Shown one piece after another: positions 31,142 through 63,732 of a stretch of 64,000 nucleotides of DNA. This DNA is from Naegleria gruberi (taxonomy: Eukaryota). The stretch lies in the NCBI GenBank assembly GCA_000004985.1, contig GG738929.1; one strand, written 5' to 3'. The notes below the pieces were generated by a model, which ran no database searches, was not told where the DNA came from, and saw nothing but the letters and a program-made list of their open reading frames with translations. Position numbers and translations under genes: made by a program. How positions within the stretch are numbered: the stretch's first letter is position 1; each line of letters starts with the position of its first letter.

Positions 31142-31725
31142 NNNNNNNNNNNNNNNNNNNNNNNNNNNNNNNNNNNNNNNNNNNNNNNNNNNNNNNNNNN
31201 NNNNNNNNNNNNNNNNNNNNNNNNNNNNNNNNNNNNNNNNNNNNNNNNNNNNNNNNNNNNNNNNNNNNNNNNNNNNNNNNNNNNNNNNNNNNNNNNNNNN
31301 NNNNNNNNNNNNNNNNNNNNNNNNNNNNNNNNNNNNNNNNNNNNNNNNNNNNNNNNNNNNNNNNNNNNNNNNNNNNNNNNNNNNNNNNNNNNNNNNNNNN
31401 NNNNNNNNNNNNNNNNNNNNNNNNNNNNNNNNNNNNNNNNNNNNNNNNNNNNNNNNNNNNNNNNNNNNNNNNNNNNNNNNNNNNNNNNNNNNNNNNNNNN
31501 NNNNNNNNNNNNNNNNNNNNNNNNNNNNNNNNNNNNNNNNNNNNNNNNNNNNNNNNNNNNNNNNNNNNNNNNNNNNNNNNNNNNNNNNNNNNNNNNNNNN
31601 NNNNNNNNNNNNNNNNNNNNNNNNNNNNNNNNNNNNNNNNNNNNNNNNNNNNNNNNNNNNNNNNNNNNNNNNNNNNNNNNNNNNNNNNNNNNNNNNNNNN
31701 NNNNNNNNNNNNNNNNNNNNNNNNN
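31142..31725. other. Assembly gap (584 N)
   Basis: Run of n characters. The + strand ORF 31082-31864 across it is an artefact. Confidence 0.99.
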
Positions 31726-32693: not shown

Positions 32694-33988
32694 CTGAATT
32701 TTTTTAATTATTTACAATTTTAAATGTGAAAAATGTTAGACAGGTGGTAGAGCATTAACAAGACTCCAAAAGATTAGAAGGAAACAATCGGTAAGTTTCG
32801 TTTAAGCCATCATCAGTTTCATCTAACTAAATTTATTGTAACACTGTAATGTCAATCATTAAGACTCCATTAATAGGTTTCTACCAGTTGGTAAATTAGG
32901 AACAACCATGTTGCTACTAGCAATTGAAATCTTGTCAAGTTCTGCTTGATAGGTATTTGCATAGGAACGTAAATTTGTGAACACAGTATCAAGGGTTGTT
33001 GTTGTCAATACTATATTATGCAGGTGGGGGTATGTTCAGTATTTTGTTGTTCTCAAAAGCCACAAAAAAAATTTACAAGTCCAATAAAAAACATATTTTG
33101 CAAATATCAGGTCTTTTACTTTGTGGAAGAACACAAAAAATGACAAATAAAACTCAATGGATGATACTCTCTTTTTATTCATCTTTTCGATTTGTTTTTA
33201 ATGAGAAAATTGATTTTGAGGTGTTTTGCAAGATTTATTCACTTATTTTACACCAACAACAAAACCAAAAATGCAATCAATAAAAAATATTGTGATTTTT
33301 TGGCAATCAATTTTTGGCTGGATTTTGTTCATGTTATTAAAGCTGTGCACTACTACATAAAATTGAGACCAGGTAGAAGTACACACAATACATCAAATCG
33401 TTCTAGTTGATCTCTAGAATTTGATTTTAGGTTGCGTGAGATTCTAGTATCTATAGTTTTGGAATTTGAATTGTTTTTAAGAAAAAAGAATCATCTTGGC
33501 CCAGTTTCTTGCTGAAGGTGAGTTTGGAAAACTGAGAGCAGTTGGATGAAGAGAGAATACACTAACATACGCAATACTGGGTCTAGTTTTCAAAAATCTT
33601 GTCGTCATGATTCTAGTATATCCCCTTTACATCGAACTCAACACTCGTATATGATTTTCTCAATATATACACAATAAAATCAATATGTCACAAGGCAATA
33701 ATATAGATGCACATAAATATTAGTAAATTTGAAATATTTACTGGTTTTTGTTGTTTATTGGTTGAGCTATTGAATTTTACCATTAATTTTCGCTAGCGGC
33801 AAGTCAACATTCCCCTCCCTTGATATTATTTGAGTTGAATAAATTCTGTAGTCACCTTACATGATTTAGCATAGACCATACGATTAGTTTTTTCTGTTCA
33901 TTTGCAGCCGGAATATCTTTTTTTATTATATTTTGAAAGGTTTGCTTTTGGAGCTGACACCCTAATATTAATCAACAACTCAATTTTC

Positions 33989-36900
33989 ATGAATAAGTCG
34001 TCATCTAAAAAAATGGAACAAGCCACCAGTTCTGAACCCACAGCAAACAAACAGTTTCGTGCTTACGTTACACAGCAAATATCTTCAATTCCAACAGCAT
34101 CACCAACATGTGCCAACTTTGCTGAACAACAAGATGTAGAAGAAGATCATGACTATCACACAAATGTCAACATTTATTGCCCTCATTGTAAATCATTTTT
34201 CTGTGAAAACTGTCATTCGTTATGTGTTTATTCTTCCTTGGAATCCAACAGTAAAATTCCCATGTCAAAAAAGAAAACAGTACAGGCCGAACATTTAAAA
34301 CATCAGTGGAATATCAATGAGGATTATCAACAAAATATCCAACAAGATGTGATGCAATTATTCATCGTTACGAACAATCTGGTTAGTATGATACAACGAT
34401 GGACAAATGACACAACTAACGTCAATCTACAGGACATTATTGACCAATACGAATTATTTAAAACAGCCACAAGCAAACATATCATCACTCCCTATTTCAA
34501 TAGAACATTTTTAGAACCGCTGACCCCTATTTGTGAAAAAATTTCTATTTTCCACAAAGCACAAGAACAGGTCAACAAATTCTCTGAAATGTTTAAAAAA
34601 TACAATAACAAAGCTCTTGATATAATGGATAGCTTTACTTTGGCTTCCACTGAAATGCGATCATTTTGTAAATCATACCTTAAGATTTCTAATGACAAAA
34701 TGGAGGAATATTTATCTCTAGCAAACACAGCAGAAAAGCTTAAATGGAATGCCATTAATTCCAAAAATCCAATGAAGTGTTGTGTTGTGGGAATTACTAA
34801 TTCTGGTAAAACTACTTTAATGAATGCAATTCTTGGAATGAACCTTTTGCCAAGTAAGGAAGGGAGATGTACAATTGCTAATACAGAATTAAGATATGCA
34901 GATTATGATAAACGTAAAATTGAAATCAAGGAAGAACATGGTACTTTCAACACACTTTCTCAATTTACTTCAGAGTATCTGATGCAACATGAATCAATTC
35001 CTGAAGAAGTTGTATCTACTTTTGGTGTTTCTGAAAAAACCAAATCAGAACAGAAGAAGGATAGAGAATCTCAAAAAACTATAAGAGTTCATTGGGATTC
35101 TCTCTTGTTAAAAACAGGAATAGCCTTTAGTGATACACCTGGATATGATGATATTTATGAAGAGGAAGTTTTATTCAACACTTACAAAAGACAATCAAAG
35201 AAAAAAGCTTTGCCTAAAAATGTAATGGTCAACCCTCAAACATTAGAATTTATTCAAGAATCTGAACTTGTTATTCTAGTAGTTGATATTAATCACACAT
35301 ATACTTCCAAAGATGCTGTTCTAAACTTGTTGGACATTGATGAATTAAAAGGCAAACAAATCATGGTTGTGATGAATAAGTGTAACATGTTTGGAAGTAT
35401 TGGAAAACGTGAAGACAGAGGTTGGGAAAGTTTCATTCACTATTGTGAAGAATATGAAAATACAAAAACTGCATCATCACCTCCATTATTATTACAATTT
35501 TACAAAATGGTAAACAATACTCATGAAAAAGCTAGAACAACATTTGAAGCATGTCTGCTTAATCATATTGATATGATGAGTACAAAAGGTATTTCTGTAA
35601 ACCAAATATATCCATTATCTGCTATGGAATCCCTTTGTTGTAAAGTAGAAGGAACTGAATTGGATTTGCCGTTCACTCTATTTGAAAAAGCACTATTTAA
35701 TATTATGGAAGATATTACAAAGAAGCGTATGTCTAATTTTGCTTCTGTTGCACACTTTTCAGTCAATACATTCCTGAGATCAACTTTGCTATGCAAAAAT
35801 TGGCATGTAAAGATGTATCAAATGCAACTCGAAAAGAAAAAACAACTGGAGGACATATCAAGTCTTGTTGAAAAGTTCAGAGAACGAATTCAACAAATTA
35901 TTCAAGATTTAAGGCAGGACATTATTGAAGTTTTTGAGAGAACATCGAGTCAAAGTAGTTCCAAGAAAATTGAAGAAGCCATGCATATTATTCACACAAA
36001 AGTTTCTGTTGAATTTAAAGAATTCTTGAAGGAACGTATTGCACAAGATCCCAAGTTATCTGTTTCAGATTGGGCCTACATAATTTCCATAACAATATTT
36101 GCAATTCCTATTTCAATAATTTTGCTTGGTATTGCGGTTCTATTAGTCCCAGTGTTGATGCCTATCATGTTTCCATATGTAATGGTAAAAACAATTTTGG
36201 ACATGGTAACAGATTTAAAAAAGAAAAAGAAGAGCAATATTATTGATGAACTAGTTTATAAAAGTGAGAGAATTCAAGTAAGTGAGGAAGAATCAGATAG
36301 TGCTGAAAACGATACTGATGACGTTCCAGAAGTACTCTCCACAACATTATTGGCTCTTGATTCACAAAATCTAGATGTAAATCAAGTCATCCAAAAGATA
36401 ATGCAGAGTTATCCTGATATGTTTTGTCTAGAAATTGAAAAGCATCTAATATCTAAAGTTGAAAATGAGTACAACGACAAACTGAAAACATTTAACTTTG
36501 TACTTTGTAAAGATGGGAAAGAATTAGCATTTTTTAATGCCTGGAAAGAGTTTCAAAAAGATCAGAATGGATGTGAACAGCTTTACAATTACTATTGCAA
36601 GACTTCATCTTTGTTTTTTGATATTAACACAAAATTTTCACTTTCAAATTTGAAATCTTTTGAATTTTGTGGACACGGAGCATTTGGTAAAACCTATCGT
36701 TTAAATAATATTACTGCAATCAAGTATATTTCTACAATTAAGCTTGCTGAACATATTTTAGATAGAGAACTATTTTATAATTCACAACTTTCACATGCAC
36801 ATATTGTTAAAAGCATGCTAATTAAAAAGGAAGAAACTGAAAACGCTTTAAACGGTTACATTTATCAAGAGTATCTCCCACAAACTCTTTCACAATGGGC

Positions 36901-37483
36901 TCTGAACAAACCAATTAACTATAAGAAAGCTCTTAGATATGCTTGTGAAATAGCACTTGGTATGAAATATATTCAATCTTGTAATATCATGCATAGAGAT
37001 TTAGACAAGTCAAACATTATGATTGACAAATTTGATCATATCAAAATTATTGATCTAGGTGTAGCAAAAGAAATGGTTGATAATGCACACACAGCAAATC
37101 AAGGAAAATATAAAACAATGGCACCAGAAGTAAAACGCTCTGGATCTGACTTTGCAATTTATGATTTTAGATGTGACGTTTATTCCTTCGGAATAGTGGT
37201 TAAAGAATTGCTTGATGGTTATGACAGTAGTGAAATTTCATTATTATTAGAGAGATGTTTGGAGAAAGATTTTAAGAATAGAATTGGTGATTGGAATGAA
37301 ATAATATTTACTTTATATAAGAGTTATGAGATGTATGAATTAGATGTGGAACCAACTGAATATTCTAACCAATTGAAAATTGAGGTACAGGAAGTTCAAG
37401 AAGAATCACAAATTGATATTGAGGTATTGAAAAAGGAATTGAAAGATAAGAAAATCATACCAAAAAATTGCATTGTGCAATAA
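33989..37483 (+). CDS. Multidomain protein: C4-type zinc finger, dynamin-superfamily-like GTPase, coiled coil, hydrophobic hairpin (about 38 aa), Ser/Thr protein kinase
   Basis: The likely true start is ATG at 33989 (MNKSSSKKMEQ...); the 29 codons upstream in the track ORF are low-complexity. Zinc-finger-like motif: CPHCKSFFCENCHSLC. GTPase: P-loop VVGITNSGKTTLMNAILGMNLLPSKEGRCT (dynamin/mitofusin-like G1 and switch I), G3 DTPG, G4 NKCN. Hydrophobic hairpin: WAYIISITIFAIPISIILLGIAVLLVPVLMPIMFPYVMV. Kinase: GHGAFGKTY glycine loop, AIK lysine, HRDLDKSN catalytic loop, DLG, APE, DVYSFG. Single uninterrupted ORF of 1164 aa. Confidence 0.75.
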   Translation: MNKSSSKKMEQATSSEPTANKQFRAYVTQQISSIPTASPTCANFAEQQDVEEDHDYHTNVNIYCPHCKSFFCENCHSLCVYSSLESNSKIPMSKKKTVQAEHLKHQWNINEDYQQNIQQDVMQLFIVTNNLVSMIQRWTNDTTNVNLQDIIDQYELFKTATSKHIITPYFNRTFLEPLTPICEKISIFHKAQEQVNKFSEMFKKYNNKALDIMDSFTLASTEMRSFCKSYLKISNDKMEEYLSLANTAEKLKWNAINSKNPMKCCVVGITNSGKTTLMNAILGMNLLPSKEGRCTIANTELRYADYDKRKIEIKEEHGTFNTLSQFTSEYLMQHESIPEEVVSTFGVSEKTKSEQKKDRESQKTIRVHWDSLLLKTGIAFSDTPGYDDIYEEEVLFNTYKRQSKKKALPKNVMVNPQTLEFIQESELVILVVDINHTYTSKDAVLNLLDIDELKGKQIMVVMNKCNMFGSIGKREDRGWESFIHYCEEYENTKTASSPPLLLQFYKMVNNTHEKARTTFEACLLNHIDMMSTKGISVNQIYPLSAMESLCCKVEGTELDLPFTLFEKALFNIMEDITKKRMSNFASVAHFSVNTFLRSTLLCKNWHVKMYQMQLEKKKQLEDISSLVEKFRERIQQIIQDLRQDIIEVFERTSSQSSSKKIEEAMHIIHTKVSVEFKEFLKERIAQDPKLSVSDWAYIISITIFAIPISIILLGIAVLLVPVLMPIMFPYVMVKTILDMVTDLKKKKKSNIIDELVYKSERIQVSEEESDSAENDTDDVPEVLSTTLLALDSQNLDVNQVIQKIMQSYPDMFCLEIEKHLISKVENEYNDKLKTFNFVLCKDGKELAFFNAWKEFQKDQNGCEQLYNYYCKTSSLFFDINTKFSLSNLKSFEFCGHGAFGKTYRLNNITAIKYISTIKLAEHILDRELFYNSQLSHAHIVKSMLIKKEETENALNGYIYQEYLPQTLSQWALNKPINYKKALRYACEIALGMKYIQSCNIMHRDLDKSNIMIDKFDHIKIIDLGVAKEMVDNAHTANQGKYKTMAPEVKRSGSDFAIYDFRCDVYSFGIVVKELLDGYDSSEISLLLERCLEKDFKNRIGDWNEIIFTLYKSYEMYELDVEPTEYSNQLKIEVQEVQEESQIDIEVLKKELKDKKIIPKNCIVQ

Positions 37484-41112: not shown

Positions 41113-43141
41113 TTGTATACATGGCTGGTTCAGTTAAAATCCCAACTAATCCCCTCGCAACAATTTTCCTTTTACGAAAAAGGAACAATGCTGATTCCTC
41201 ACGAAAAGAAAGAAGTTGCACTCAACCTTATTCAAGATTTTCTCCAATCTCGAAAATTCGTTCGAATCAAACTGGTAGCTCAATTTATAGGAAAGCTGGA
41301 ATTCGCCTCTTTAGCAGAACAATACATAATGCCTCTGTTAAACAGATTACGAGTTTCAGTAGTAGGATGGTCAGTCTTTATGCTCATCAACAGAGGCCCC
41401 ATGACGGACCTAATAAGATTAAAGTCCATCATTTCAAACTCAAAAGGTTCTCTCCTAGATCTAAATCAACCTTTCCCAATTATAATCAATTCAGATGCTT
41501 CTCCTCAAGGATAAGGTGTCCACTCCTCAAACACTGTTATTATAGGAAGATTTCACACCCACGATCATATCAATTCGAAAGAAATGATGGCAATTCTTCA
41601 ATTCTTCATCGAAGCAAAATCACAAAAGCTCTTCCCAAGAGGAACCTATTTCGAGATAAGGTGGACAATTCAACTGCCTTCTCATACATAAGAAAAGGAT
41701 ATGGAACTTTCGAACACCTCGCTCAAATAGCAAGAAAAATTTGGAAAATTCTAATAGAATGTTGCTGGAGAATTGCAAAAGTAATTTACATTCCCTCAGA
41801 GAAAAATTCAATTGCAAACAAATTAAGCCTTTTAAGCGATTGGAAATCATCACCAGAATTGATAAATATGGTAGAAAAAGAATTCGGAAACCACACCATA
41901 GACAGATTTGCAACATCAGAGTCAGCAACAACGATCCATTTCAACTCTTTGTTAGAAAACGATGCGTTTCAAGAACTTTGGGAACAAAACTCAATCAATT
42001 ATTGTGTTCCTCCAATAGGTCTAATCCCACAAGCTCTATTTCACTTGATCCGATCAAAGGCCATAGGAACATTCGTAGTTCCTTATTGGCCAACAGCTTA
42101 CTGGTTCCCGATCTTGCTAAAGATATCTTTAGAACAGATACGTGTTCCGCTCCAATGGCTTATAACAGAGCATTACAACGAACTGCACAAACAATCAGAC
42201 AATATTTCGTTCATGGCGGTCAAAGTGAATGGAATGCTCAACTTTCAATGAGATGTCAGGCTTTATCTACTGCTCTTGCAGAATCGACAAAGTATTCAGA
42301 ATTTTCTTATTTCTGTCTACTCCATAATTTAGACAAATCAGATGTTAGAGCCCCAGAATTATTCGCTTGCTATCTTGCGGTTCACAAGAAGCTCTACAGA
42401 TTGAATAGTTTGAAACCTACGTTGGATTTCTATTCAAATTTGGAAGGATGGTCCGTAAATTATTCTAATCAATTCTTTAGAATCAAACAAGGTTTGAATA
42501 AGTTTTATTCACGAGCCGATATTGTTAAACATAAGAGAAGTGGAATCTCTGCTCTCAATGTCAAGCAATTCATTGATAGGATCTCTATTAAAGACCCTTA
42601 TCTTCACATGTTGTCTTGTGCCATACTTTCCGTTGGCATTAGATTATTAGCAAGACCTGGTCAACTGGCTAATTTATCATGGTCTTGTGTTAAACTTGAT
42701 ACTCCTTTTATCGGTTGGGTTACTTTTGATCTTTCTGGTCACAAAACAGACCAATTATCTGACATGAAGAAACTCCTATTGAACCATAAAGAGGAAATAA
42801 GAAATACTGTCCAGTTTATAACCTTAGAAGATATGGATTATGTTAAACATATTAAGGAAGACGATTCTCCATTATTTTCGTTACTGTTTGATGAATATTT
42901 CACTCCTACTCAAATTTCTAATATTATTTCAAGCCCCATGAGCTCTATTGGTGTTCAAAACACTTCAGGCCATAGCCTTCGTATAAGTGCAGCTACTAAG
43001 CTGGCTTCTAAGGGTGTGTCTCAATCTATGATTGAGACAGCTGGTAATTGGGTGCCTAATTCAAAAATTAGATTGAGATATCAACGTAGAATTGGCCTAG
43101 CTACTCATGGTTTAACTACTTCTATTATGAGAACTGATTAA
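41113..43141 (+). mobile_element. Remnant (3' half) of a DIRS-like tyrosine-recombinase retrotransposon: RNase H and YR domains spread over three reading frames, so a pseudogene
   Basis: In frame 1 the ORF ends ...IIINSDASPQG (RNase H DAS motif). In frame 3 it continues ...VDNSTAFSYIRKG...IPSEKNSIANKLS (RNase H TDN / IPGxxNxxAD.LS motifs). In frame 2 there is a C-terminal tyrosine recombinase: GIRLLARPGQLANLS (Arg box), GHKTD (Lys), HSLRISAATKLASKG (H-x-x-R), GNW, RLRY (nucleophile Tyr). At least two frameshifts separate these pieces, and no RT or gag ORF is detectable upstream. Confidence 0.6.
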
Positions 43142-43901: not shown

Positions 43902-43951
43902 NNNNNNNNNNNNNNNNNNNNNNNNNNNNNNNNNNNNNNNNNNNNNNNNNN
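43902..43951. other. Assembly gap (50 N)
   Basis: Run of n characters. Confidence 0.99.
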
Positions 43952-44009: not shown

Positions 44010-45029
44010 TTATCGATCTTTATGCTTTTCAAGATAGGCATTGGAAATTGCTTTGAAACTAAATTTACCATCCAATCTCTTGAATACTAAACCTTCTCTT
44101 TTGACATTCTTGTTCAAAGATGGCCCATCAGCCATTGCCAAAATCTGCTCTGCTGTATGATTCAATTCCAAATCATCCAAAATTGGGACATGTTTGACAG
44201 TGAATCCGTTATCATTCAATTGCTTCACCAATGATTGTCGTTCAATTGGTGTCAAATACTGAGCCTTATCAATATCATAAATATCAAACAAGTAAAAATC
44301 TTGACCTTTCAATTTTTCCAAATTTCCTTGAATTGATTCTCCAATAATTTCACCTTGTAGGGCCAAATTTCTATTTAAAAATTGTAATCCTTCAATCATT
44401 TTGTTTCTCCTAGCAGCATGCCATTGTGCATTAGTTGCAGTTTCTCTCAATTCCCAATTTCTTCCACATACACCAATATGGTCATCTTTCCTATATACAG
44501 TCATTGATGAGCCATCCAATTTCACAGTCACTTCAAATTTTTGACCCTTATTTTCTTCAATTTGTGGAATTAAGTTTTGTACACGTTCCTGATCTGTCTT
44601 ACTAATAAAAGTTGGAAATTCACCCAAAATTTCACCAGAAAGATTAGTGGAAATTGGTGGTTCCCACTTTGTAATTCCTAGAATTTCTGTAACATCATCA
44701 CCCACTTGATTGGAAGCCAATTCTGGGAATCTATCCATTGGCAAGAACAACCCTTGGCTCAATTGACCTCTCAACCTAGCAGTACGAAGACGAGTACCTC
44801 TTTGACCTTCATAATCAATAACTTGTTTTGAAAGCATTGGATACCTATCATTATCTTCCTTTATAAAACTATCAATTTCAAAATAGACTCCCCTATCACC
44901 TTGTTTAAATTCTCCCTTCTTGATCACACAAGTCCAACCATCAACATGGCAACATTCAATAGCTTCTGCACCTGCAATAGGAGTAATTTCTCCTGCAGTA
45001 CGAATAGTAGCAAGTTTACGTACACCCAT
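44010..45029 (-). CDS. ATP-dependent RNA ligase, Rnl5 / DraRnl-like family (339 aa); probable orthologue of Naegleria gruberi NgrRnl
   Basis: ATG at 45029-45027; the track start at 45053 is a TTG. Covalent nucleotidyltransferase motif I KLDGSS, with Lys at residue 170 counted from the ATG. Motif IV/V-like EGLVFKR. A distinct N-terminal domain precedes the NTase domain. Length and active-site lysine position match what I recall for NgrRnl (339 aa, K170). Intronless. Confidence 0.8.
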   Translation of the reverse strand: MGVRKLATIRTAGEITPIAGAEAIECCHVDGWTCVIKKGEFKQGDRGVYFEIDSFIKEDNDRYPMLSKQVIDYEGQRGTRLRTARLRGQLSQGLFLPMDRFPELASNQVGDDVTEILGITKWEPPISTNLSGEILGEFPTFISKTDQERVQNLIPQIEENKGQKFEVTVKLDGSSMTVYRKDDHIGVCGRNWELRETATNAQWHAARRNKMIEGLQFLNRNLALQGEIIGESIQGNLEKLKGQDFYLFDIYDIDKAQYLTPIERQSLVKQLNDNGFTVKHVPILDDLELNHTAEQILAMADGPSLNKNVKREGLVFKRLDGKFSFKAISNAYLEKHKDR

Positions 45030-45288
45030 AGTGTTATTATTATTATTTAACAATTATTAAAATAAATAATATTATTGGATAATATTATCTCCGGTCTCTT
45101 AGAGTTTTTAAAAGCAAATTGAAAATAAATTCCTTCTTGCTGATGGATTTTTTTTTAAGTTTGAAAATAAAAATGTTCCAAGTTCTCCTGAAATCAGTTA
45201 AATTGAATTTGTGTTTCTCCTTGAAATTGCACTGTAGCTCTAAGAGAGCATATATTACAATGTTAATGTGAGTTCATCAATATATTCT

Positions 45289-57065: not shown

Positions 57066-57611
57066 TTACTGTTGGAAATATTTTTTGATCTTTTTCAGAT
57101 CATTAAAGATTTCTGAAAACTTTGGTCTGCCACTTGGATCTTGAGACCAACATTTTTCCATCAAGCTTACAAACAACTCTACACCATCAAGTATTTGTTT
57201 CTTTTGTTCATCTGAAAGGTTTGTATAATTATTAAAAAGATAAATATCCGCCCATTGTGATAGCTCATTCCTGTTTTCAAAAGGGACAAGTGGTCTTAAA
57301 CCTTCCTTTGCCACCTTGAAAATAATATTTAATCCATTATTACTGTTATTCAATCCAAAATTCCATGATTTTCCATTTGAAAAGAAATGAATTTTTTTTG
57401 AATCCTCATTCAAATATGGGTTTTCCTCAAAGAATAATTCATACATTATTATGGAAAATGAAAAAACATCTATTTTTGTGAGTAAATCTCTATCCTCAAA
57501 GCTGTCTTGAGCTTCTCCTAAAGATACCTCTGGAGCCATGTAAAAAAGAGTGCCCAATGTCATTGTAAATATAGACTGTTTCATTGAATTAGTGGAAACG
57601 ATTTTGGAAAG
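57066..57611 (-). CDS. Receptor-like protein kinase, exon 2: kinase C-lobe (subdomains VIII-XI)
   Basis: GTLFYMAPE, DVFSFSIIMYEL, CWSQDPSGRPKFSEI. TAA stop at 57066-57068. Confidence 0.75.
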   Translation of the reverse strand, partial: LSKIVSTNSMKQSIFTMTLGTLFYMAPEVSLGEAQDSFEDRDLLTKIDVFSFSIIMYELFFEENPYLNEDSKKIHFFSNGKSWNFGLNNSNNGLNIIFKVAKEGLRPLVPFENRNELSQWADIYLFNNYTNLSDEQKKQILDGVELFVSLMEKCWSQDPSGRPKFSEIFNDLKKIKKYFQQ

Positions 57612-57657
57612 CTGTTTAAATTCAAAATATTAGTTCTTCAATACTAAAATAACATAC
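57612..57657 (-). other. Spliceosomal intron (46 nt) inside the kinase domain
   Basis: gtatgttattttagtattgaagaactaatattttgaatttaaacag. GTATGT donor, ACTAAT branch-like element, CAG acceptor. Removing it joins ...KVCDFG to LSKIVSTNSMKQSIFTMTLGTLFYMAPE in frame, restoring kinase subdomains VII-VIII. Confidence 0.7.
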
Positions 57658-60600
57658 ACCAAAATCACAAACTTTTGCCTGTCCTGTCGCATTAATGAGA
57701 ACATTTGCTGGCTTTAAATCTCTGAGTAAATTATCAATTAATAAAACAATTGATACAGTAAAAACTAACCTATGAATTAATTTTGGTTTCAATCCATGTA
57801 AATATTTCATACCTGAGGAAATGTCCAATAATATTTGAGCTTTTTGTGAAAGTGTCAGAAAATCTTTTCCACTTCTACAGTCATTGATAATCTTCTCTAA
57901 ACTTCCTCTTTCGCAATATTCTACAACCATGAATCTCTTTGACTCGGTTATACATACTCCGTAGAAAGTGACAATATATGGATTTCTTAAATTTACAAGC
58001 AATGAAACCTCCCTTTCAAAATCCTCTCCATTAGTTTCATTTTCCTCTGATTTTTGATGGAACGACTTGATAGCTACATTGGTAGTCTCCCAACATTTTG
58101 CTAAAAATATGGAACCATAAGCTCCCTCTCCAATTTTCTTTTCTATTTTCAAGTCATCTGAATTAATGAGAAAGTTCATTGACTTTTTGTTCTTTATGAT
58201 TGAATCTTTTGGATCGTAATTGATTCCATAATTTTTGTGAAATTCAGACTTTAAAAGTCTTTTTTCAATATCCTCTTCAGCTTTTTCAAGCTTTTTTAAT
58301 TTTTTAAGTTTGTCCTTAATTTTCCACAATTTCCTAAAAGCAAAAGTTATTAATAATCCAATTATTATACCAGATATAAGAGCTAACAATACACCAACCA
58401 CCGACGTTGATATGAGAACCTCCATAGGAAATGAAGGAGCACACACACCTTCTTGAAGGGAATATCCATGAGGACATGGTGTAATTATCACAGTAATTGG
58501 TATAGATCTGGAAGTAATTTTCAGTAGTATTGGAAACTTGGATTCACTAGGTTGAGATGGTGCCTCAGAAAATGAAATATTGATACCATTATCTATGATA
58601 CTGTAGTCACATTTTGGTATATAGAGAGATGAATTTGAGATAGGTTCTATATCCTCTCTGAAAATATTTACCAAATTTCCATAATAATCTGCTGATTTCA
58701 AAATTTCAATTTTAGCATATTGACCTAAATGCAAATTAAGTGTGGCTGAATTATTAGTAGCAACCAAGTATTTTCCATCAATTCCAAAGTAGGTAGTTTG
58801 AATAGCATAAATAAATTGTATAGAAGATGCCATGTTATCTCCATAAAAACCAGCAGAATTATTTTTCAAATCTGTACCATCGAAATAACCATTTATAGAA
58901 AACACGCCTCCGCCAGCTATCTTTGCATGATTTCCCTCAATGAAACTCTTGGCATCTACAAGCTTTCTATTATCGTTGCTTGTGAATACAGCTCCTCCCC
59001 AAACAGCATAATTTCCTGTCGCGTTCACATTGTAAAATGTAATTATGCTCCTGAGTGAGATAGCGCCTCCAGATCCCTCACACGAGTAGAATCCTTTACA
59101 GTAGCTTTTATCAATATTAGGGTAATGGTTGATTCCATTGTCTCTAAATACTGAATAGGTAATTTGTGAGTGAGAATAATCATTTGAATTTGGGAAAACA
59201 CTGACCATAGCCACAGCCCCTCCTGATATTGTAGCTACATTCGAGACGAATGTTGAACGATCTATAGATAACATTGTTGAATCAGAAACTGCAACAGCTC
59301 CACCACTTCCATTCACAGCACTGTTACTGTCAAATATAGAATCCGCAACCACAAAGAATTCAGAGTCAACAAATACCGATCCTCCATTATCATTTGATAT
59401 CTGGTTGTCTAAAAATCTGGAATTACCAATTTTTGCACTTGAAGCGTCAATTAAATGTACAACTCCACCAATATTACCTGTTGACTCACATTCATCCATT
59501 ACAAACTCATTAACTCGTTCTACGAAAAGTATCCGTGTTTTAGCAGCATTTCCAATTATTTTGACTCTTGATATTGATACGTCGGATGTGTACTTTAGAG
59601 AAATCCAACCTCTACTTAGATTTAACGCCTGACAGTTATCCAATATTATGTTTAAAATCATTTCTGCATAAATTAAAAATGGTTTTTTACCTATAAGTAG
59701 TTCACCGTTTTCTCTTGAAGAAATGAATTTAGAGCCACTAATGTCTGTTTTCTGTATTGAGCTAAGCTTTAGAATACTGATGGAAGGATTACTATCAATA
59801 AATACTAGATTATTCATTTGTAAATGGTCAACATTTAAAATAGTCCAAATGGTACTAGGAGGATCGTTTCCATTTAAAATCATACTATTTAATATTTTCA
59901 CATTTGTCACTATATTGATAGATCCAGAAAGACCTTTCAGATATGATTGATCTATTATAACTCCGCTAGCATATTTTATATAAAAAAGACATGATATCAA
60001 TGTAGAATTATAGACATGTAGTTTTTGTGAAGTAATTCCCACGTTGGTAAGATGGGAGTTTGTCACAAAATTAAGATCCGCTGTTAATGATTGTAGGGAA
60101 AGCTTGTGAAAATTTGTTAAAGATATTAAGTTTAAATTAAATTCACCATCAGTAGAAAATAGAATAGCATTAATATCAGGGCATTTGTAAGTGAATATTC
60201 GATTTCCAAATGATTTAAACTCCAGTTGAATGGCCACATTGTTGGAAATTACTGCAAAGTTTGACTTGAAAAACAAATCTAATCCGCAATTTTCAACCAA
60301 ATTCTTATCAAAATCATCAAGTATAAATATATTGGCTGTAAAAACCATTTTCAACTTGTTCGTAACTAATTCATTCCAATTTAACAAAATTTCATTTTCA
60401 ATTATTGGTTTCAAAACATATCGAAATGCTAATTTGGGATTATTACACGGAATATCCATCTGTAAACCACATTTGAAGGGTGGATTTAAAAAAGATGAAT
60501 TTAAATATATCGTAGTATTATACTCCTTTTCCGGCTTGTTGTTTGATCCTATTGTTTTTAATTCTCCTCCTCCACCTCCGAATAAAACATCAGTGTTTTC

Positions 60601-60687
60601 CATCGTGTCCACCAATTGTAATTTTAAATAAATCATCAAAATGATGAAAATAAAATTCGATAAATATGAAGAGATACTTTGAGGCAT
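57658..60687 (-). CDS. Receptor-like protein kinase, exon 1: signal peptide, Pmp-type (GGA[IV]/FxxN) parallel beta-helix ectodomain, TM segment, and the kinase N-lobe up to DFG
   Basis: ATG at 60687, hydrophobic N-terminus. At least 7 GGAV/GGAI/GGSV/GGGV tetrapeptides together with FxxN motifs (FLDN, FDSN, FVSN, FRDN), as in chlamydial polymorphic membrane protein repeats. TM segment VVGVLLALISGIIIGLLITFAF. Kinase: IGEGAYGSIF, VAIK, HRDLKPANVLIN, KVCDFG. The exon ends at GGT and is followed by GTATGT. Confidence 0.75.
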
Positions 60688-61488: not shown

Positions 61489-63732
61489 ATGAACCCCAAG
61501 CCGACTCTATTTCTCGTTTTTCTTCTTTTCGTTAATCTATTGTCTTGCGTATTTGGACAGACCACCACCTACAATATTACTACTATTGCTGGTGGTGGCA
61601 CAGGAGAAGGCGGTCCAGCAAGTACTGCCTTTTTATATACGCCAAACAGTGTGGCATTTGGTCTGAAAGGCGAATTGTACATTGCCGACGATTATAGAAT
61701 TCGTAAAATAGAGAATAATACCATTACAACTATAGTAGGGAGTGCCAGTAAGGGCTTTAGTGGAGATGGTGGGCTCTCCACTCTGGCTAAGGTGCAAAAT
61801 CCAACTGGCATCGTTGTTGGCACTAGAGGTGAGATTCTTTTTGTGGATTCTGATAGAATTAGAAAGATAGAGAATGGTATTATTACAACCATTGCTGGTA
61901 CTGGTGATTCAAGATTTGGTGGAGATGGTGATTTAGCAACGAAGGCACAACTAAATTCTCCTAGAGGTATCGCGATTAGTTCAACAGGTGAAATTTATAT
62001 TGCTGACACTTATAACCATAGAATTCGTAGAATTGCATTGAATGGTACCATTAATACTGTAGCAGGTACTGGTGATTCAAGATTTGGTGGAGATGGTGAT
62101 TTAGCAACGAAGGCGCAACTAAATTATCCTATGGGTATCGCGATTAGTTCAACAGGTGAAATTTATATTGCTGACACTTTTAACGAAAGAATTCGTAGAA
62201 TTGCATTGAATGGTACCATTAATACTATAGCAGGTACTGGTGTCTTAGGACTTAGTGGAGATGGTGATTTAGCAACGAAGGCACAACTAAACACTCCTAG
62301 AGGAATCGCGATTAGTTCAACAGGTGAAATTTATTTTGCTGACACCAGTAACCAAAGAATTCGTAGAATTGCATTGAATGGTATCATTGATACTATAGCA
62401 GGTACTGGTGATCCAAGATTTGGTGGAGATGGTGATTTAGCAACGAAGGCACAACTAAATTCTCCTAGAGGTATCGCGATTAGTTCAACAGGTGAAATTT
62501 ATATTGCTGACACTTATAACCAAAGAATTCGTAGAATTGCATTGAATACTAATATTTCAACCTTTGCCGGTAGTGGGTTTGGATATAGTGGATATGTTGG
62601 AGATGGTGGTTTATCTACTGATGCCCTATTGAATACACCCTTATCTGTAGCTTGTAGTTCAAATGGGGAAATTTATATTGCTGACACTTATAACCATAGA
62701 ATTCGCAAAATTTCACTTAATAATACCATTACAACAATTGCTGGTACTGGAGACAGTGGGTTTAGTGGTGATGGTGGTTTGGCTATCAATGCAAGATTAA
62801 GTTCACCTGCAGATATTGTTGTTAATTCAAATGGTGTAATTTACTTTTCTGATTACGATAATAACAGAATTCGTAAAATAGCATCTAATGGTATTATTAC
62901 AACCGTTGTAGGATCAGGTGTAATTGGAAGTGGGGGCGATGGTGGTTTAGCTATTAATGCCCAACTTAATCGACCTTATGGAATTACATTTAATTCAAAT
63001 GCAGAAATGTACATTGTAGAAAGAATGGGTAGCAGAATTCGTAAAGTTGGTGTAAATGGTATTATAACAACCGTTGCTGGAAGTGATATAGCAAGTGGGG
63101 GAACAACCAGCGTTGGTAGTTTGGCAACTAAAACTGTACTGAATGCACCTTCAAAAATTGTCATTAACTCTAACAATGAGATAATCTTTTCAGACTCGTT
63201 ACACGGTAGAGTTCTTAAAATTGGTTTAGATGGTATTATTAGTGGAGTTGGAAATAGTTTTCGTATGCCCATTGGTATAGCAATAGGTTCAGATGGTGAA
63301 ATGTATATTGCTGATACGAGCATTTTTGCAATACTTAAAATTGACAAGAAAGGAGTGCTTTCAACTATTGTAACTGGATTGGAATCTCCACGTGGCATTA
63401 CATTAGATTCAAAGGGTAATATTTATGTCACAGATTTATATGTTATACATAAAATAACACCAGGTCAACAACCATCTCCCTATAAATCCACTCAACCTGA
63501 TACTTCAATGAAACCAACTCAGCCTGATACTTCAATGAAACCAACTCCTGGAATATCAAGCAAACCAACTCCTGGAATATCAAGCAAACCAACCCCAGGT
63601 CTCTCATTAAAACCAGCCCAGTCAATGAATGTTCCTACACCAAAAAATAGTGAAAGAGTTTCAGAAGCTCTTTCAGTTGTATCTGGTTGGCTTTTTACTT
63701 TTATAATCTTTATTTCAGTTTTCCAATTTTAG
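61489..63732 (+). CDS. Secreted/surface NHL-repeat beta-propeller protein (747 aa): signal peptide, about 13 NHL blades, Thr/Pro-rich stalk, C-terminal hydrophobic (GPI-signal-like) tail
   Basis: N-terminus MNPKPTLFLVFLLFVNLLSCVFG. Recurrent NHL-type units (...IYIADTYNHRIRRI..NG.I.T.AGTG..GFSGDGG.A..A.L..P.GIA....G.). C-terminal KPTQPDTSM x2 and KPTPGISS x2 mini-repeats. Terminal ALSVVSGWLFTFIIFISVFQF. Confidence 0.8.
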   Translation: MNPKPTLFLVFLLFVNLLSCVFGQTTTYNITTIAGGGTGEGGPASTAFLYTPNSVAFGLKGELYIADDYRIRKIENNTITTIVGSASKGFSGDGGLSTLAKVQNPTGIVVGTRGEILFVDSDRIRKIENGIITTIAGTGDSRFGGDGDLATKAQLNSPRGIAISSTGEIYIADTYNHRIRRIALNGTINTVAGTGDSRFGGDGDLATKAQLNYPMGIAISSTGEIYIADTFNERIRRIALNGTINTIAGTGVLGLSGDGDLATKAQLNTPRGIAISSTGEIYFADTSNQRIRRIALNGIIDTIAGTGDPRFGGDGDLATKAQLNSPRGIAISSTGEIYIADTYNQRIRRIALNTNISTFAGSGFGYSGYVGDGGLSTDALLNTPLSVACSSNGEIYIADTYNHRIRKISLNNTITTIAGTGDSGFSGDGGLAINARLSSPADIVVNSNGVIYFSDYDNNRIRKIASNGIITTVVGSGVIGSGGDGGLAINAQLNRPYGITFNSNAEMYIVERMGSRIRKVGVNGIITTVAGSDIASGGTTSVGSLATKTVLNAPSKIVINSNNEIIFSDSLHGRVLKIGLDGIISGVGNSFRMPIGIAIGSDGEMYIADTSIFAILKIDKKGVLSTIVTGLESPRGITLDSKGNIYVTDLYVIHKITPGQQPSPYKSTQPDTSMKPTQPDTSMKPTPGISSKPTPGISSKPTPGLSLKPAQSMNVPTPKNSERVSEALSVVSGWLFTFIIFISVFQF
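61894..62566 (+). repeat. Four tandem, over 90% identical 168-bp (56-codon) intragenic repeats, each encoding one NHL blade
   Basis: The units start at about 61897, 62065, 62233 and 62401 (ggtactggtgat... the period is exactly 168 nt). The flanking blades of the same gene are much more divergent. Confidence 0.8.

What the first reader, a model, noticed from the sequence alone, without database searches (positions are those of the whole stretch)
57066..60687. Receptor-like kinase whose ectodomain is built from chlamydial-Pmp-type beta-helix repeats; its kinase domain is split by a 46-nt intron
The predicted extracellular region carries at least 7 GGA[IV]/GGSV tetrapeptides alternating with FxxN motifs. 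That is the signature of polymorphic-membrane-protein (Pmp) parallel beta-helix repeats, best known from bacterial adhesins and autotransporters. It is followed by one TM helix and a canonical kinase. A 46-nt GTATGT...CAG intron (57612-57657) lies precisely between DFG and the activation loop. Without removing it the kinase is truncated by a stop. A bacterial-adhesin-like fold used as a sensor domain on a eukaryotic kinase is uncommon and may reflect domain acquisition.
Basis: partly seen in the sequence, partly recalled or inferred. Interest (0 to 1): 0.5.

Follow-up and report, generated by a model that had tools for sequence, protein, structure and literature searches.

The report
Naegleria receptor kinase with beta-helix ectodomain
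This is a real gene of the amoeba Naegleria gruberi for a membrane receptor kinase whose outer part is a Pmp-type beta-helix, a domain combination not found in the papers searched but a modest variation on the lineage-specific receptor kinases common in protists.

Summary
On the minus strand, 57066-60687 encodes a 1175-aa type I membrane protein. It has an N-terminal hydrophobic leader, a ~730-aa ectodomain, one TM helix (res 757-785) and a complete TKL-type kinase (Pkinase E=6e-51). The 46-nt intron at 57612-57657, directly after DFG, is correct. A N. gruberi paralogue has an intron at the same site and phase.

The strict GGA[IV]/GGSV count is 5, not 7; two variants (GGVV, GGGV) bring it to 7. 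Shuffles give a mean of 0.15.

The window is from Naegleria gruberi. Full-length relatives were found only in N. gruberi, N. lovaniensis and N. fowleri, plus two metagenome sequences, one of them kinase-less.

The protein has no autotransporter barrel, so it is not a chlamydial Pmp. No donor for a domain transfer is identifiable. Ligand sensing is inferred, not shown. It is a new variant of a known kind, of moderate interest.

The parts
57770..60687 (-). Coding exon 1 (res 1-972 plus the first two bases, AG, of Arg973 in HRD)
   Evidence: ORF and sequence. The splice model gives a 3528-nt CDS with no internal stop.
57722..57769 (-). Intron A: 48 nt, GTTAGT...CTCAG, in frame and stop-free, phase 2 inside the Arg codon of HRD.
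   Evidence: Homologues read IHRDLKPAN straight through. The N. gruberi paralogue has a 50-nt intron at the same site and phase (L004 4064-4113).
57658..57721 (-). Coding exon 2 (last base of Arg973, then DLKPANVLINATGQAKVCDFG)
57612..57657 (-). Intron B: 46 nt, GTATGT...AAACAG, phase 0 directly after DFG. Contains the in-frame TGA at 57622-57624 and an ACTAAT branch-point-like site.
   Evidence: Homologues read VCDFGLS(K/R) without interruption.
57066..57611 (-). Coding exon 3 (activation loop to C-terminus, res 995-1175, plus stop TAA 57066-57068)
60607..60687 (-). N-terminal hydrophobic leader (res 1-27, h-region FIFIILMIYL); probable signal peptide
   Evidence: Kyte-Doolittle mean 2.6 over res 9-23. 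Homologues also start with a hydrophobic leader. No SignalP was run.
59503..60606 (-). N-terminal cap and degenerate beta-helix coils (res 28-395), with family-invariant Cys81, Cys134 and Cys169
   Evidence: AF2 model, pLDDT about 45-75 up to model res ~255 and higher beyond. Invariant columns. No Pfam hit.
58828..59502 (-). Pmp-type repeat core (res 396-620): 7-8 rungs, each with an FxxN or N-x-A motif followed by a GG[ASGV][IV] motif
   Evidence: Motif positions. Invariant F/N/A/GGA columns in the family. Pfam Chlam_PMP 20.5-22.2 bits. pLDDT mostly 85-98.
58432..58827 (-). Membrane-proximal all-beta stalk (res 621-752), Ig-like sandwich, ending in the conserved C-P-x-G-Y...C...FP
58333..58419 (-). 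Single transmembrane helix (res 757-785)
   Evidence: Highest hydrophobicity in the protein. Helix in the AF2 model.
58168..58332 (-). Lys/Glu-rich juxtamembrane segment (res 786-840; KLKKLEKAEEDIEKRLL, conserved in the family)
   Evidence: Consensus of alignment A2. A helical or coiled-coil character is inferred, not computed.
57102..58149 (-). Protein kinase domain (res 847-1164; spans both introns), TKL-like, with a family-conserved insert of about 70 aa before subdomain XI
   Evidence: Pkinase E=6e-51. Best solved relatives are CTR1 4.4e-34, TNNI3K, TAK1, Roco4, CERK1 and RIPKs.

Best explanation
The locus is a functional, twice-spliced Naegleria gruberi gene for a single-pass type I receptor kinase.

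Shown or predicted from the sequence:
- an N-terminal leader;
- an ectodomain predicted to be one long right-handed parallel beta-helix, whose central 7-8 rungs keep the FxxN / GGA[IV] signature of Pmp-type repeats;
- an Ig-like stalk, one TM helix and a charged juxtamembrane segment;
- a TKL-group Ser/Thr-type kinase with all catalytic motifs intact.

It belongs to a small family seen so far only in Naegleria. In that family the kinase is conserved (about 49-60% identity) and the ectodomain evolves fast (about 28-30%).

Inferred mechanism:
- In Pmp-type helices the FxxN/GGA motifs are buried and structural, and variable loops form the exposed surface (PMC10715098). The helix would therefore act as a rigid binding platform for an extracellular ligand.
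- The ligand is most plausibly a glycan or a surface component of bacterial prey or substrate.
- Occupancy or clustering would bring the cytoplasmic kinases together, leading to activation-loop phosphorylation and TKL/MAP3K-like downstream signalling.
- Because intron A is in frame and stop-free, retaining it would give a full-length protein with a disrupted catalytic loop. This is possible but speculative.
For: Gene model. Both introns have GT...AG ends, and splicing restores a continuous kinase.

Splice support from homologues:
- N. lovaniensis, N. fowleri and N. gruberi proteins read ...IHRDLKPAN...VCDFGLS... without interruption.
- The paralogue has an intron at the same HRD site and phase, and that intron contains stops.

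Organism: a neighbouring ORF is 100% identical to the PDB 5COT Naegleria gruberi RNA ligase.

Topology: TM at res 757-785, N-terminal hydrophobic leader, 10 NxS/T sequons and 12 Cys in the ectodomain.

Pmp-type repeats:
- Motif excess over shuffles.
- Pfam 20.5-22.2 bits on fragments.
- All 5 first-search hits carry PF02415.
- 906 representatives at E<=1e-3, most listed ones matching res ~397-615 in several stretches.
- 4 of 6 family members hit Chlam_PMP (1.6e-12) and Beta_helix (1.6e-16).
- Invariant F/N/A/GGA columns across the family.

Fold:
- AF2 mean pLDDT 76, pTM 0.73, repeat core mostly 85-98.
- The stalk is Ig-like.

Kinase: Pkinase 6e-51; closest solved kinases are TKL members.

Family and evolutionary rates.
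Against: - No transcript evidence was available, so both splice events rest on homology and consensus signals.
- Pfam does not report Chlam_PMP on the full-length protein.
- The Foldseek matches to PDB are weak (E 7e-4 and worse, TM 0.14-0.3).
- AlphaFold2 can produce confident but unrealistic beta-solenoids for repeat sequences (bioRxiv 10.1101/2024.10.30.621056), and the alignment had only 6 rows.
- Nothing here identifies a ligand, shows surface localisation or shows kinase activity.
- Intron B is not shared by the paralogue or by the N. lovaniensis genes, whose single intron lies at YYM|APE.
Confidence: 0.75

Rival explanations
1. Adhesion molecule rather than a soluble-ligand sensor. The beta-helix mainly sticks the amoeba to substrate or prey, as reported for trichomonad Pmp-like proteins. 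The kinase reports or regulates adhesion or phagocytosis.
Against: There are no binding or localisation data. This overlaps the main model rather than excluding it. The fast-evolving ectodomain with a conserved kinase fits either reading.
Confidence: 0.25
2. Enzyme-linked kinase. The beta-helix is a catalytically active glycoside hydrolase, lyase or epimerase acting on extracellular polysaccharide.
Against: Sequence identity to those enzymes is only 8-12%, and no Pfam glycosidase or lyase family was hit. The sequence-level relatives are Pmp-type repeat proteins, whose conserved residues are described as buried structural motifs (PMC10715098). No conserved acidic catalytic cluster was looked for or found.
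Confidence: 0.08
3. Broken gene. The 46-nt stretch is not spliced, so the locus gives a kinase truncated after DFG (a decaying pseudogene) and perhaps a separate small downstream product.
For: There are no transcript data. Intron B is not found at this site in the paralogue or in the N. lovaniensis genes.
Against: The ends are exact GTATGT...CAG. Its size (46 nt) is in the same class as the paralogue's 50- and 53-nt introns. Removal restores the frame exactly at DFG|LSK, as in every homologue. The downstream exon keeps APE, subdomains IX-XI and the family-specific insert, with no stops over 181 codons.
Confidence: 0.04
4. Recent horizontal acquisition. The ectodomain was captured from a bacterial (for example chlamydial or other amoeba-associated) Pmp gene and fused to a resident kinase.
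For: Pmp-type repeats are most abundant in bacteria and archaea among the hits. Naegleria feeds on bacteria.
Against: The whole ectodomain (cap, helix, stalk) is shared by N. gruberi, N. lovaniensis and N. fowleri at only about 28-30% identity, so it is old in the genus. GC content (0.32-0.33) matches its neighbours. The nearest non-Naegleria hits are a mixture of bacteria, archaea and green, brown and xanthophyte algae, with no single close donor: identity is no more than about 36% over about 90 aa. There is no autotransporter remnant. An ancient transfer remains possible.
Confidence: 0.1

Closest known systems
Trichomonad Pmp-like surface proteins (Handrich et al. 2019, PMC6701047)
   Same: Eukaryotic type I membrane proteins. 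The extracellular part carries repeated FxxN / GGA[ILV] motifs. They lack the chlamydial middle and autotransporter domains and are anchored by one C-terminal TM helix.
   Different: The trichomonad proteins have only a short cytoplasmic tail with endocytic motifs and a conserved ATPITK motif. The Naegleria protein has a 390-aa cytoplasmic part with a complete kinase, plus an Ig-like stalk. Direct sequence relatedness between the two was not tested here.
Chlamydial polymorphic membrane proteins (type V autotransporters; PF02415 + Pmp middle region + PF03797; PMC10715098, PMC11166332)
   Same: Paired FxxN and GGA[ILV] motifs about 25-30 residues apart, forming rungs of a right-handed beta-helix. 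The conserved residues are structural and the loops are variable.
   Different: No autotransporter beta-barrel and no Pmp middle domain. The protein is eukaryotic, has introns, is anchored by a TM helix and is coupled to a kinase. Only 7-8 recognisable rungs, against 9-25 in Pmps.
Dictyostelium TKL-group receptor kinases (GDT and DRK families; Goldberg et al. 2006, PMC1420674)
   Same: Signal peptide, lineage-specific ectodomain, single TM helix and C-terminal TKL kinase, in a free-living amoeboid protist that lacks classical receptor tyrosine kinases.
   Different: A different supergroup (Amoebozoa versus Heterolobosea). The GDT ectodomain was defined there by an in-house HMM and is not described as Pmp or beta-helix. 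Homology of the ectodomains could not be tested here.
Protist and plant transmembrane kinases in general (oomycete TKL-TMKs, Entamoeba TMKs, plant RLK/Pelle; PMC10463195, PMC3019232)
   Same: A modular design: a variable sensor ectodomain recombined with a conserved Ser/Thr/Tyr-kinase-superfamily domain. About 40% of protist TMK non-kinase domains have no Pfam annotation (PMC10463195).
   Different: The ectodomains reported there are LRR, Cys-rich, GPCR-type and others. No beta-helix or Pmp ectodomain is mentioned in the texts searched. This kinase is closest to CTR1/TAK1/TNNI3K-type TKLs rather than to RLK/Pelle.

Membership tests
Proteins with Pmp-type repeats (Pfam PF02415 Chlam_PMP) | Repeated, paired FxxN and GGA[ILV] tetrapeptides with a period of about 25-30 residues | tested here: met
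   Five strict GGA[IV]/GGSV motifs plus GGVV and GGGV. Each is preceded by FxxN or N-x-A, with spacings of 27, 27, 27, 51, 24 and 28 residues. Shuffles gave mean 0.15 and maximum 3. The columns are invariant across the family.
Proteins with Pmp-type repeats (Pfam PF02415 Chlam_PMP) | Score at or above Pfam's gathering threshold (20.6 bits) for PF02415 | tested here: inconclusive
   No hit on the full-length protein or the whole ectodomain. A 272-aa fragment scores 20.5 bits and a 63-aa fragment 22.2 bits. Four of six family ectodomains hit it, best E=1.6e-12.
Right-handed parallel beta-helix (pectin-lyase-like) fold | Three-stranded right-handed beta-helix of stacked coils | tested here: met
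Chlamydial Pmp autotransporters (type Va secretion) | C-terminal autotransporter beta-barrel (PF03797) and Pmp middle domain | tested here: not met
   Neither family was reported by Pfam on the protein, its fragments or its relatives. The C-terminal part is a TM helix plus a kinase.
Eukaryotic protein kinase, TKL group | Complete ePK catalytic core: GxGxxG, VAIK Lys, alphaC Glu, HRD, DFG, APE | tested here: met
   GEGAYG, VAIK, FEREV, HRDLKPAN, DFG and YMAPE are present after splicing. Pkinase E=6e-51 over profile positions 2-259 of 263.
Eukaryotic protein kinase, TKL group | Closest similarity to TKL families (MLK/Raf-like/TAK1/LRRK-ROCO/RIPK/IRAK) | tested here: met
   The best solved relatives are CTR1 4.4e-34, TNNI3K, TAK1 1.4e-31, Roco4, CERK1 and RIPK1/2/4. 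No formal kinome phylogeny was made.
Tyrosine kinase group (the public name of the paralogue is 'tyrosine kinase') | Catalytic loop HRDLAARN / HRDLRAAN and the TK-specific P+1 loop | tested here: not met
   The catalytic loop is HRDLKPAN, the Ser/Thr and TKL type, in this protein and in all family members. The motif rule is established knowledge of kinase classification.
Plant RLK/Pelle (IRAK) receptor kinases | Kinase domain belonging to the RLK/Pelle-IRAK clade | tested here: inconclusive
   CERK1 and LysM-RLK kinases match at 6e-26 to 3e-24. This is weaker than CTR1, TAK1 and TNNI3K at about 1e-31 to 4e-34. No tree was built.
Dictyostelium GDT receptor kinases | Shared 'gdt' extracellular domain | not tested
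Only the overall architecture is alike (PMC1420674).

The most novel reading that the evidence does not exclude
Naegleria may have built a genus- or Heterolobosea-specific class of receptor kinases by joining a Pmp-type beta-helix (otherwise known from adhesins of bacteria, archaea and trichomonads) to a TKL kinase. The class would be used to recognise surface glycans of bacterial prey or of host tissue. The member in the pathogen N. fowleri (FDP41_010393) would then be a candidate contact sensor. The in-frame intron in the HRD codon could allow a regulated kinase-dead isoform.
Probability: 0.2. Interest if true: 0.6.

Novelty: new variant of a known kind. Interest (0 to 1): 0.38.

Why it matters
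- Receptor kinases with lineage-specific ectodomains are how many protists sense their surroundings, yet about 40% of protist transmembrane-kinase ectodomains have no annotation (PMC10463195). This finding gives one such family a fold and a repeat type.
- It also shows a Pmp-type beta-helix wired directly to a kinase. That combination was absent from all 279 repeat relatives fetched here apart from the Naegleria ones, and from the papers searched.
- A family member exists in the brain-eating amoeba N. fowleri, so a surface beta-helix receptor kinase is a reasonable candidate for contact sensing and possibly an antigen.
- Practically, the work corrects the gene model here (two introns).
- It also exposes a chimeric public model of the paralogue.
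- The claim is modest. The parts are all known, function is inferred, and the family is small.

Tried and rejected
- Word-indexed protein searches. The ectodomain alone returned only 5 distant repeat proteins and none of the true family. The full-length family profile was swamped by repetitive Pmp proteins and did not even return its own members. Only the ectodomain family profile added one member, P0158. The exhaustive HMMER search found the rest of the family.
- Exact look-ups of window-encoded proteins (NHL protein, LRR protein, RNA ligase with two start choices) found nothing on record. I therefore could not see how, or whether, this locus is annotated publicly. The protein itself is not in the collections searched: the best hit is 27% identical.
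- The afdb50 fold library was not available. The predicted fold could not be compared with Dictyostelium GDT or other eukaryotic models.
- A PDB sequence search with the ectodomain profile gave only chance TM-helix matches.
- Literature searches for Naegleria with polymorphic membrane protein, and for receptor kinase with beta-helix, gave nothing relevant. The protist TMK survey holds no supplementary text.
- Rejected, membership in chlamydial Pmp autotransporters: no barrel and no middle domain.
- Rejected, 'tyrosine kinase': the catalytic loop is HRDLKPAN.
- Rejected, conserved intron positions across the genus: the N. lovaniensis genes have one intron at a different site.
Full report
**Source organism.** The window is AT-rich (GC about 0.32-0.35 where sequenced). 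It has a 28-kb run of N at 837-28929. The ORF at 44010-45053 (-) is 100% identical over 340 residues to PDB 5COT, 'Naegleria gruberi RNA ligase'. The window is therefore Naegleria gruberi nuclear DNA. The neighbouring ORFs look like ordinary eukaryotic genes: an AMP-binding enzyme, an HMG-box protein, an LRR protein and an NHL-repeat surface protein.

**Checking the observation: the first intron.** On the minus strand, ORF 57622-60687 (1021 aa) ends at TGA 57624-57622. ORF 57066-57584 lies downstream in another frame. The sequence reads GAT TTT GGT | GTATGTTATTTTAGTATTGAAGAACTAATATTTTGAATTTAAACAG | CTT TCC AAA. This is a 46-nt GT...AG intron at 57612-57657, directly after DFG. Its removal gives VCDFG|LSKIVSTNSMKQSIFTMTLGTLFYMAPE.

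The long ORF reads ...KLIHR LVFTVSIVLLIDNLL RDLKPAN.... The DNA is CAT AG | GTTAGT...TTTACTCAG | A GAT TTA AAG. This is a 48-nt GT...AG intron at 57722-57769, in frame and free of stops, sitting inside the Arg codon of HRD. The spliced CDS (60687-57770, 57721-57658, 57611-57066) encodes 1175 aa.

**Splice support from relatives.** There were no transcript data. Homologues from N. lovaniensis, N. fowleri and N. gruberi read ...(I/V)HRDLKPAN(I/V)(L/I)...KVCDFGLS(K/R)... without interruption. The N. gruberi paralogue was read on a near-identical metagenome contig, L004. It has a 50-nt intron (GTAAGT...TTAG) at exactly the same site and phase as intron A, and that intron contains stops. It has a 53-nt intron after ILIDVA and none after DFG. 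The two N. lovaniensis genes have a single intron elsewhere, at YYM|APE, of 72 and 79 nt. Intron A is therefore shared within N. gruberi. Intron B is specific to this gene among those examined.

**Anatomy of the protein.**
- Residues 1-27 are a hydrophobic leader.
- Residues 757-785 are the only strong TM segment.
- The ectodomain has 10 NxS/T sequons and 12 cysteines.
- Residues 847-1164 match Pkinase at E=6e-51 over almost the whole profile. All catalytic motifs are present.
- The nearest solved kinases are TKL members: CTR1 4.4e-34, then TNNI3K, TAK1, Roco4, CERK1 and RIPKs.
- The catalytic loop HRDLKPAN is the Ser/Thr and TKL type, so the public name 'tyrosine kinase' for the paralogue is not supported.

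**Is the ectodomain Pmp-type? Evidence from this protein alone.** The strict pattern GGA[IV]/GGSV occurs 5 times. The variants GGVV407 and GGGV592 bring it to 7. Each is preceded by FxxN or N-x-A about 7-10 residues earlier, and the period is about 27 residues. Shuffling the ectodomain 5000 times never gave more than 3. Pfam is borderline. It reports nothing on the full-length protein or the whole ectodomain. It gives 20.5 bits on a 272-aa fragment and 22.2 bits on a 63-aa fragment, against a 20.6-bit cut-off.

**Is the ectodomain Pmp-type? Evidence from relatives.**
- All five hits of the first search carry PF02415.
- The exhaustive search of 1.84 billion representatives gave 906 hits at E<=1e-3. 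Most of the 150 listed match only residues ~370-590 of the query, in several stretches each.
- Five hits cover the whole ectodomain. They were identified as N. lovaniensis C9374_004390, N. fowleri FDP41_010393, a metagenome-derived representative whose cluster includes N. gruberi XP_002681770, and two unnamed metagenome proteins.
- In the six-sequence alignment the F, N, A and GGA columns are invariant.
- Four of the six members hit Chlam_PMP (best 1.6e-12) and Beta_helix (1.6e-16).

[quoted passage not shown] Similar motifs occur in bacteria, archaea and Trichomonas. Trichomonad Pmp-like proteins lack the middle and autotransporter domains and end in a TM helix with a short tail (PMC6701047). 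The Naegleria protein likewise has no autotransporter barrel or middle domain. It therefore contains Pmp-type repeats but is not a member of the chlamydial Pmp family.

**How unusual is the fusion?** Among the 279 repeat relatives fetched, only the Naegleria proteins contain a kinase domain (phmmer). One relative from a metagenome, P0008, has the same ectodomain and TM helix but only a 22-residue tail, and the next gene lies on the other strand. Kinase-less versions therefore exist. Receptor kinases that join a TKL kinase to a lineage-specific ectodomain are well known in Dictyostelium (PMC1420674), oomycetes (PMC3019232) and protists in general (PMC10463195). None of the texts searched mentions a beta-helix or Pmp ectodomain. 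Nothing was found linking Naegleria with Pmp repeats.

**Evolution.** The kinase domain is 49-60% identical to its relatives and the ectodomain 27-30%. This is the usual pattern for receptors. The two N. lovaniensis genes are 88.6% identical recent duplicates. The closest non-Naegleria repeat proteins are a mix: a Clostridia MAG, Methanofollis, Methanobrevibacter, Kiritimatiellales, and the algae Caulerpa, Bryopsis, Pleodorina, Heterococcus and Hapterophycus. No donor can be named. The gene has host-like GC content and spliceosomal introns. An ancient transfer cannot be excluded, and a recent one is unlikely.

**Most likely mechanism (inferred).** The protein is a type I receptor whose rigid beta-helix presents variable loops to bind an extracellular ligand. 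Ligand-driven clustering would activate the TKL kinase. The ligand is probably a glycan or a prey or substrate surface component. Rival readings are a primarily adhesive role, an enzymatic ectodomain, a broken gene, and recent horizontal acquisition. Each is weighed in its own entry.

**Verdict.** Corrections: two introns rather than one; 5 strict plus 2 variant motifs; borderline Pfam support on the protein itself; 'chlamydial' applies to the motif only. This is a new variant of a known kind, of moderate interest.

Noticed in passing
L004 1192-4699 (ENA metagenome contig near-identical to N. gruberi XP_002681770 / D2V2B3): The public 2154-aa N. gruberi model named 'tyrosine kinase' looks like a chimera. 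It lacks the N-terminus and leaves the kinase after '...PFTTRIQL' to join an unrelated downstream gene. Re-modelling with two introns (53 and 50 nt) gives an 1134-aa protein of the same architecture, ending '...LLTINELLS*'.
   Followed up: partly
window 33902-37483 (+): [quoted passage not shown] There is a hydrophobic stretch between them. This is an unusual pairing.
   Followed up: no
window 44010-45029 (-): This is the gene for the structurally characterised Naegleria gruberi RNA ligase (PDB 5COT), 100% identical. It identifies the organism.
   Followed up: yes
window 837-28929, 31142-31725, 43902-43951: These are assembly gaps (runs of N). The first covers 28 kb, almost half of the window.
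   Followed up: no
window 41121-43141 (+): Two overlapping ORFs. The second has a weak tyrosine-recombinase match (Phage_integrase 1.4e-4). This may be a DIRS-like retroelement or another recombinase-bearing mobile element next to an assembly gap.
   Followed up: no
window 61489-63732 (+): This gene is the divergent neighbour of the receptor kinase, with about 800 bp between the two start codons. It encodes a 747-aa NHL / teneurin-NHL beta-propeller repeat protein (TEN_NHL 4.8e-89). It has an N-terminal leader, a Pro/Thr/Ser-rich repeat stalk and a C-terminal hydrophobic tail, so it is another probable surface protein.
   Followed up: no
L001 3001-6676 and L002 3001-6648 (N. lovaniensis PYSW02000061.1 and PYSW02000020.1): Two 88.6%-identical copies of the family lie on different contigs. 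Each has a single intron (79 and 72 nt, GTAAGT...ATAG) at YYM|APE. That position differs from both introns of the N. gruberi gene, so intron positions have turned over within the family.
   Followed up: partly
L003 2977-5319 (JGI metagenome 3300002220): A 780-aa relative with the same ectodomain, stalk and TM helix but only a 22-residue cytoplasmic tail. It is a kinase-less, receptor-like-protein version of the family, from an unidentified eukaryote.
   Followed up: partly
window 57066-60687: The protein encoded here is absent from both large protein collections searched (best hit 27% identical), although its N. gruberi paralogue is present. Exact look-ups of three other proteins of this window also found nothing. 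Whether the locus is annotated publicly could not be established.
   Followed up: partly
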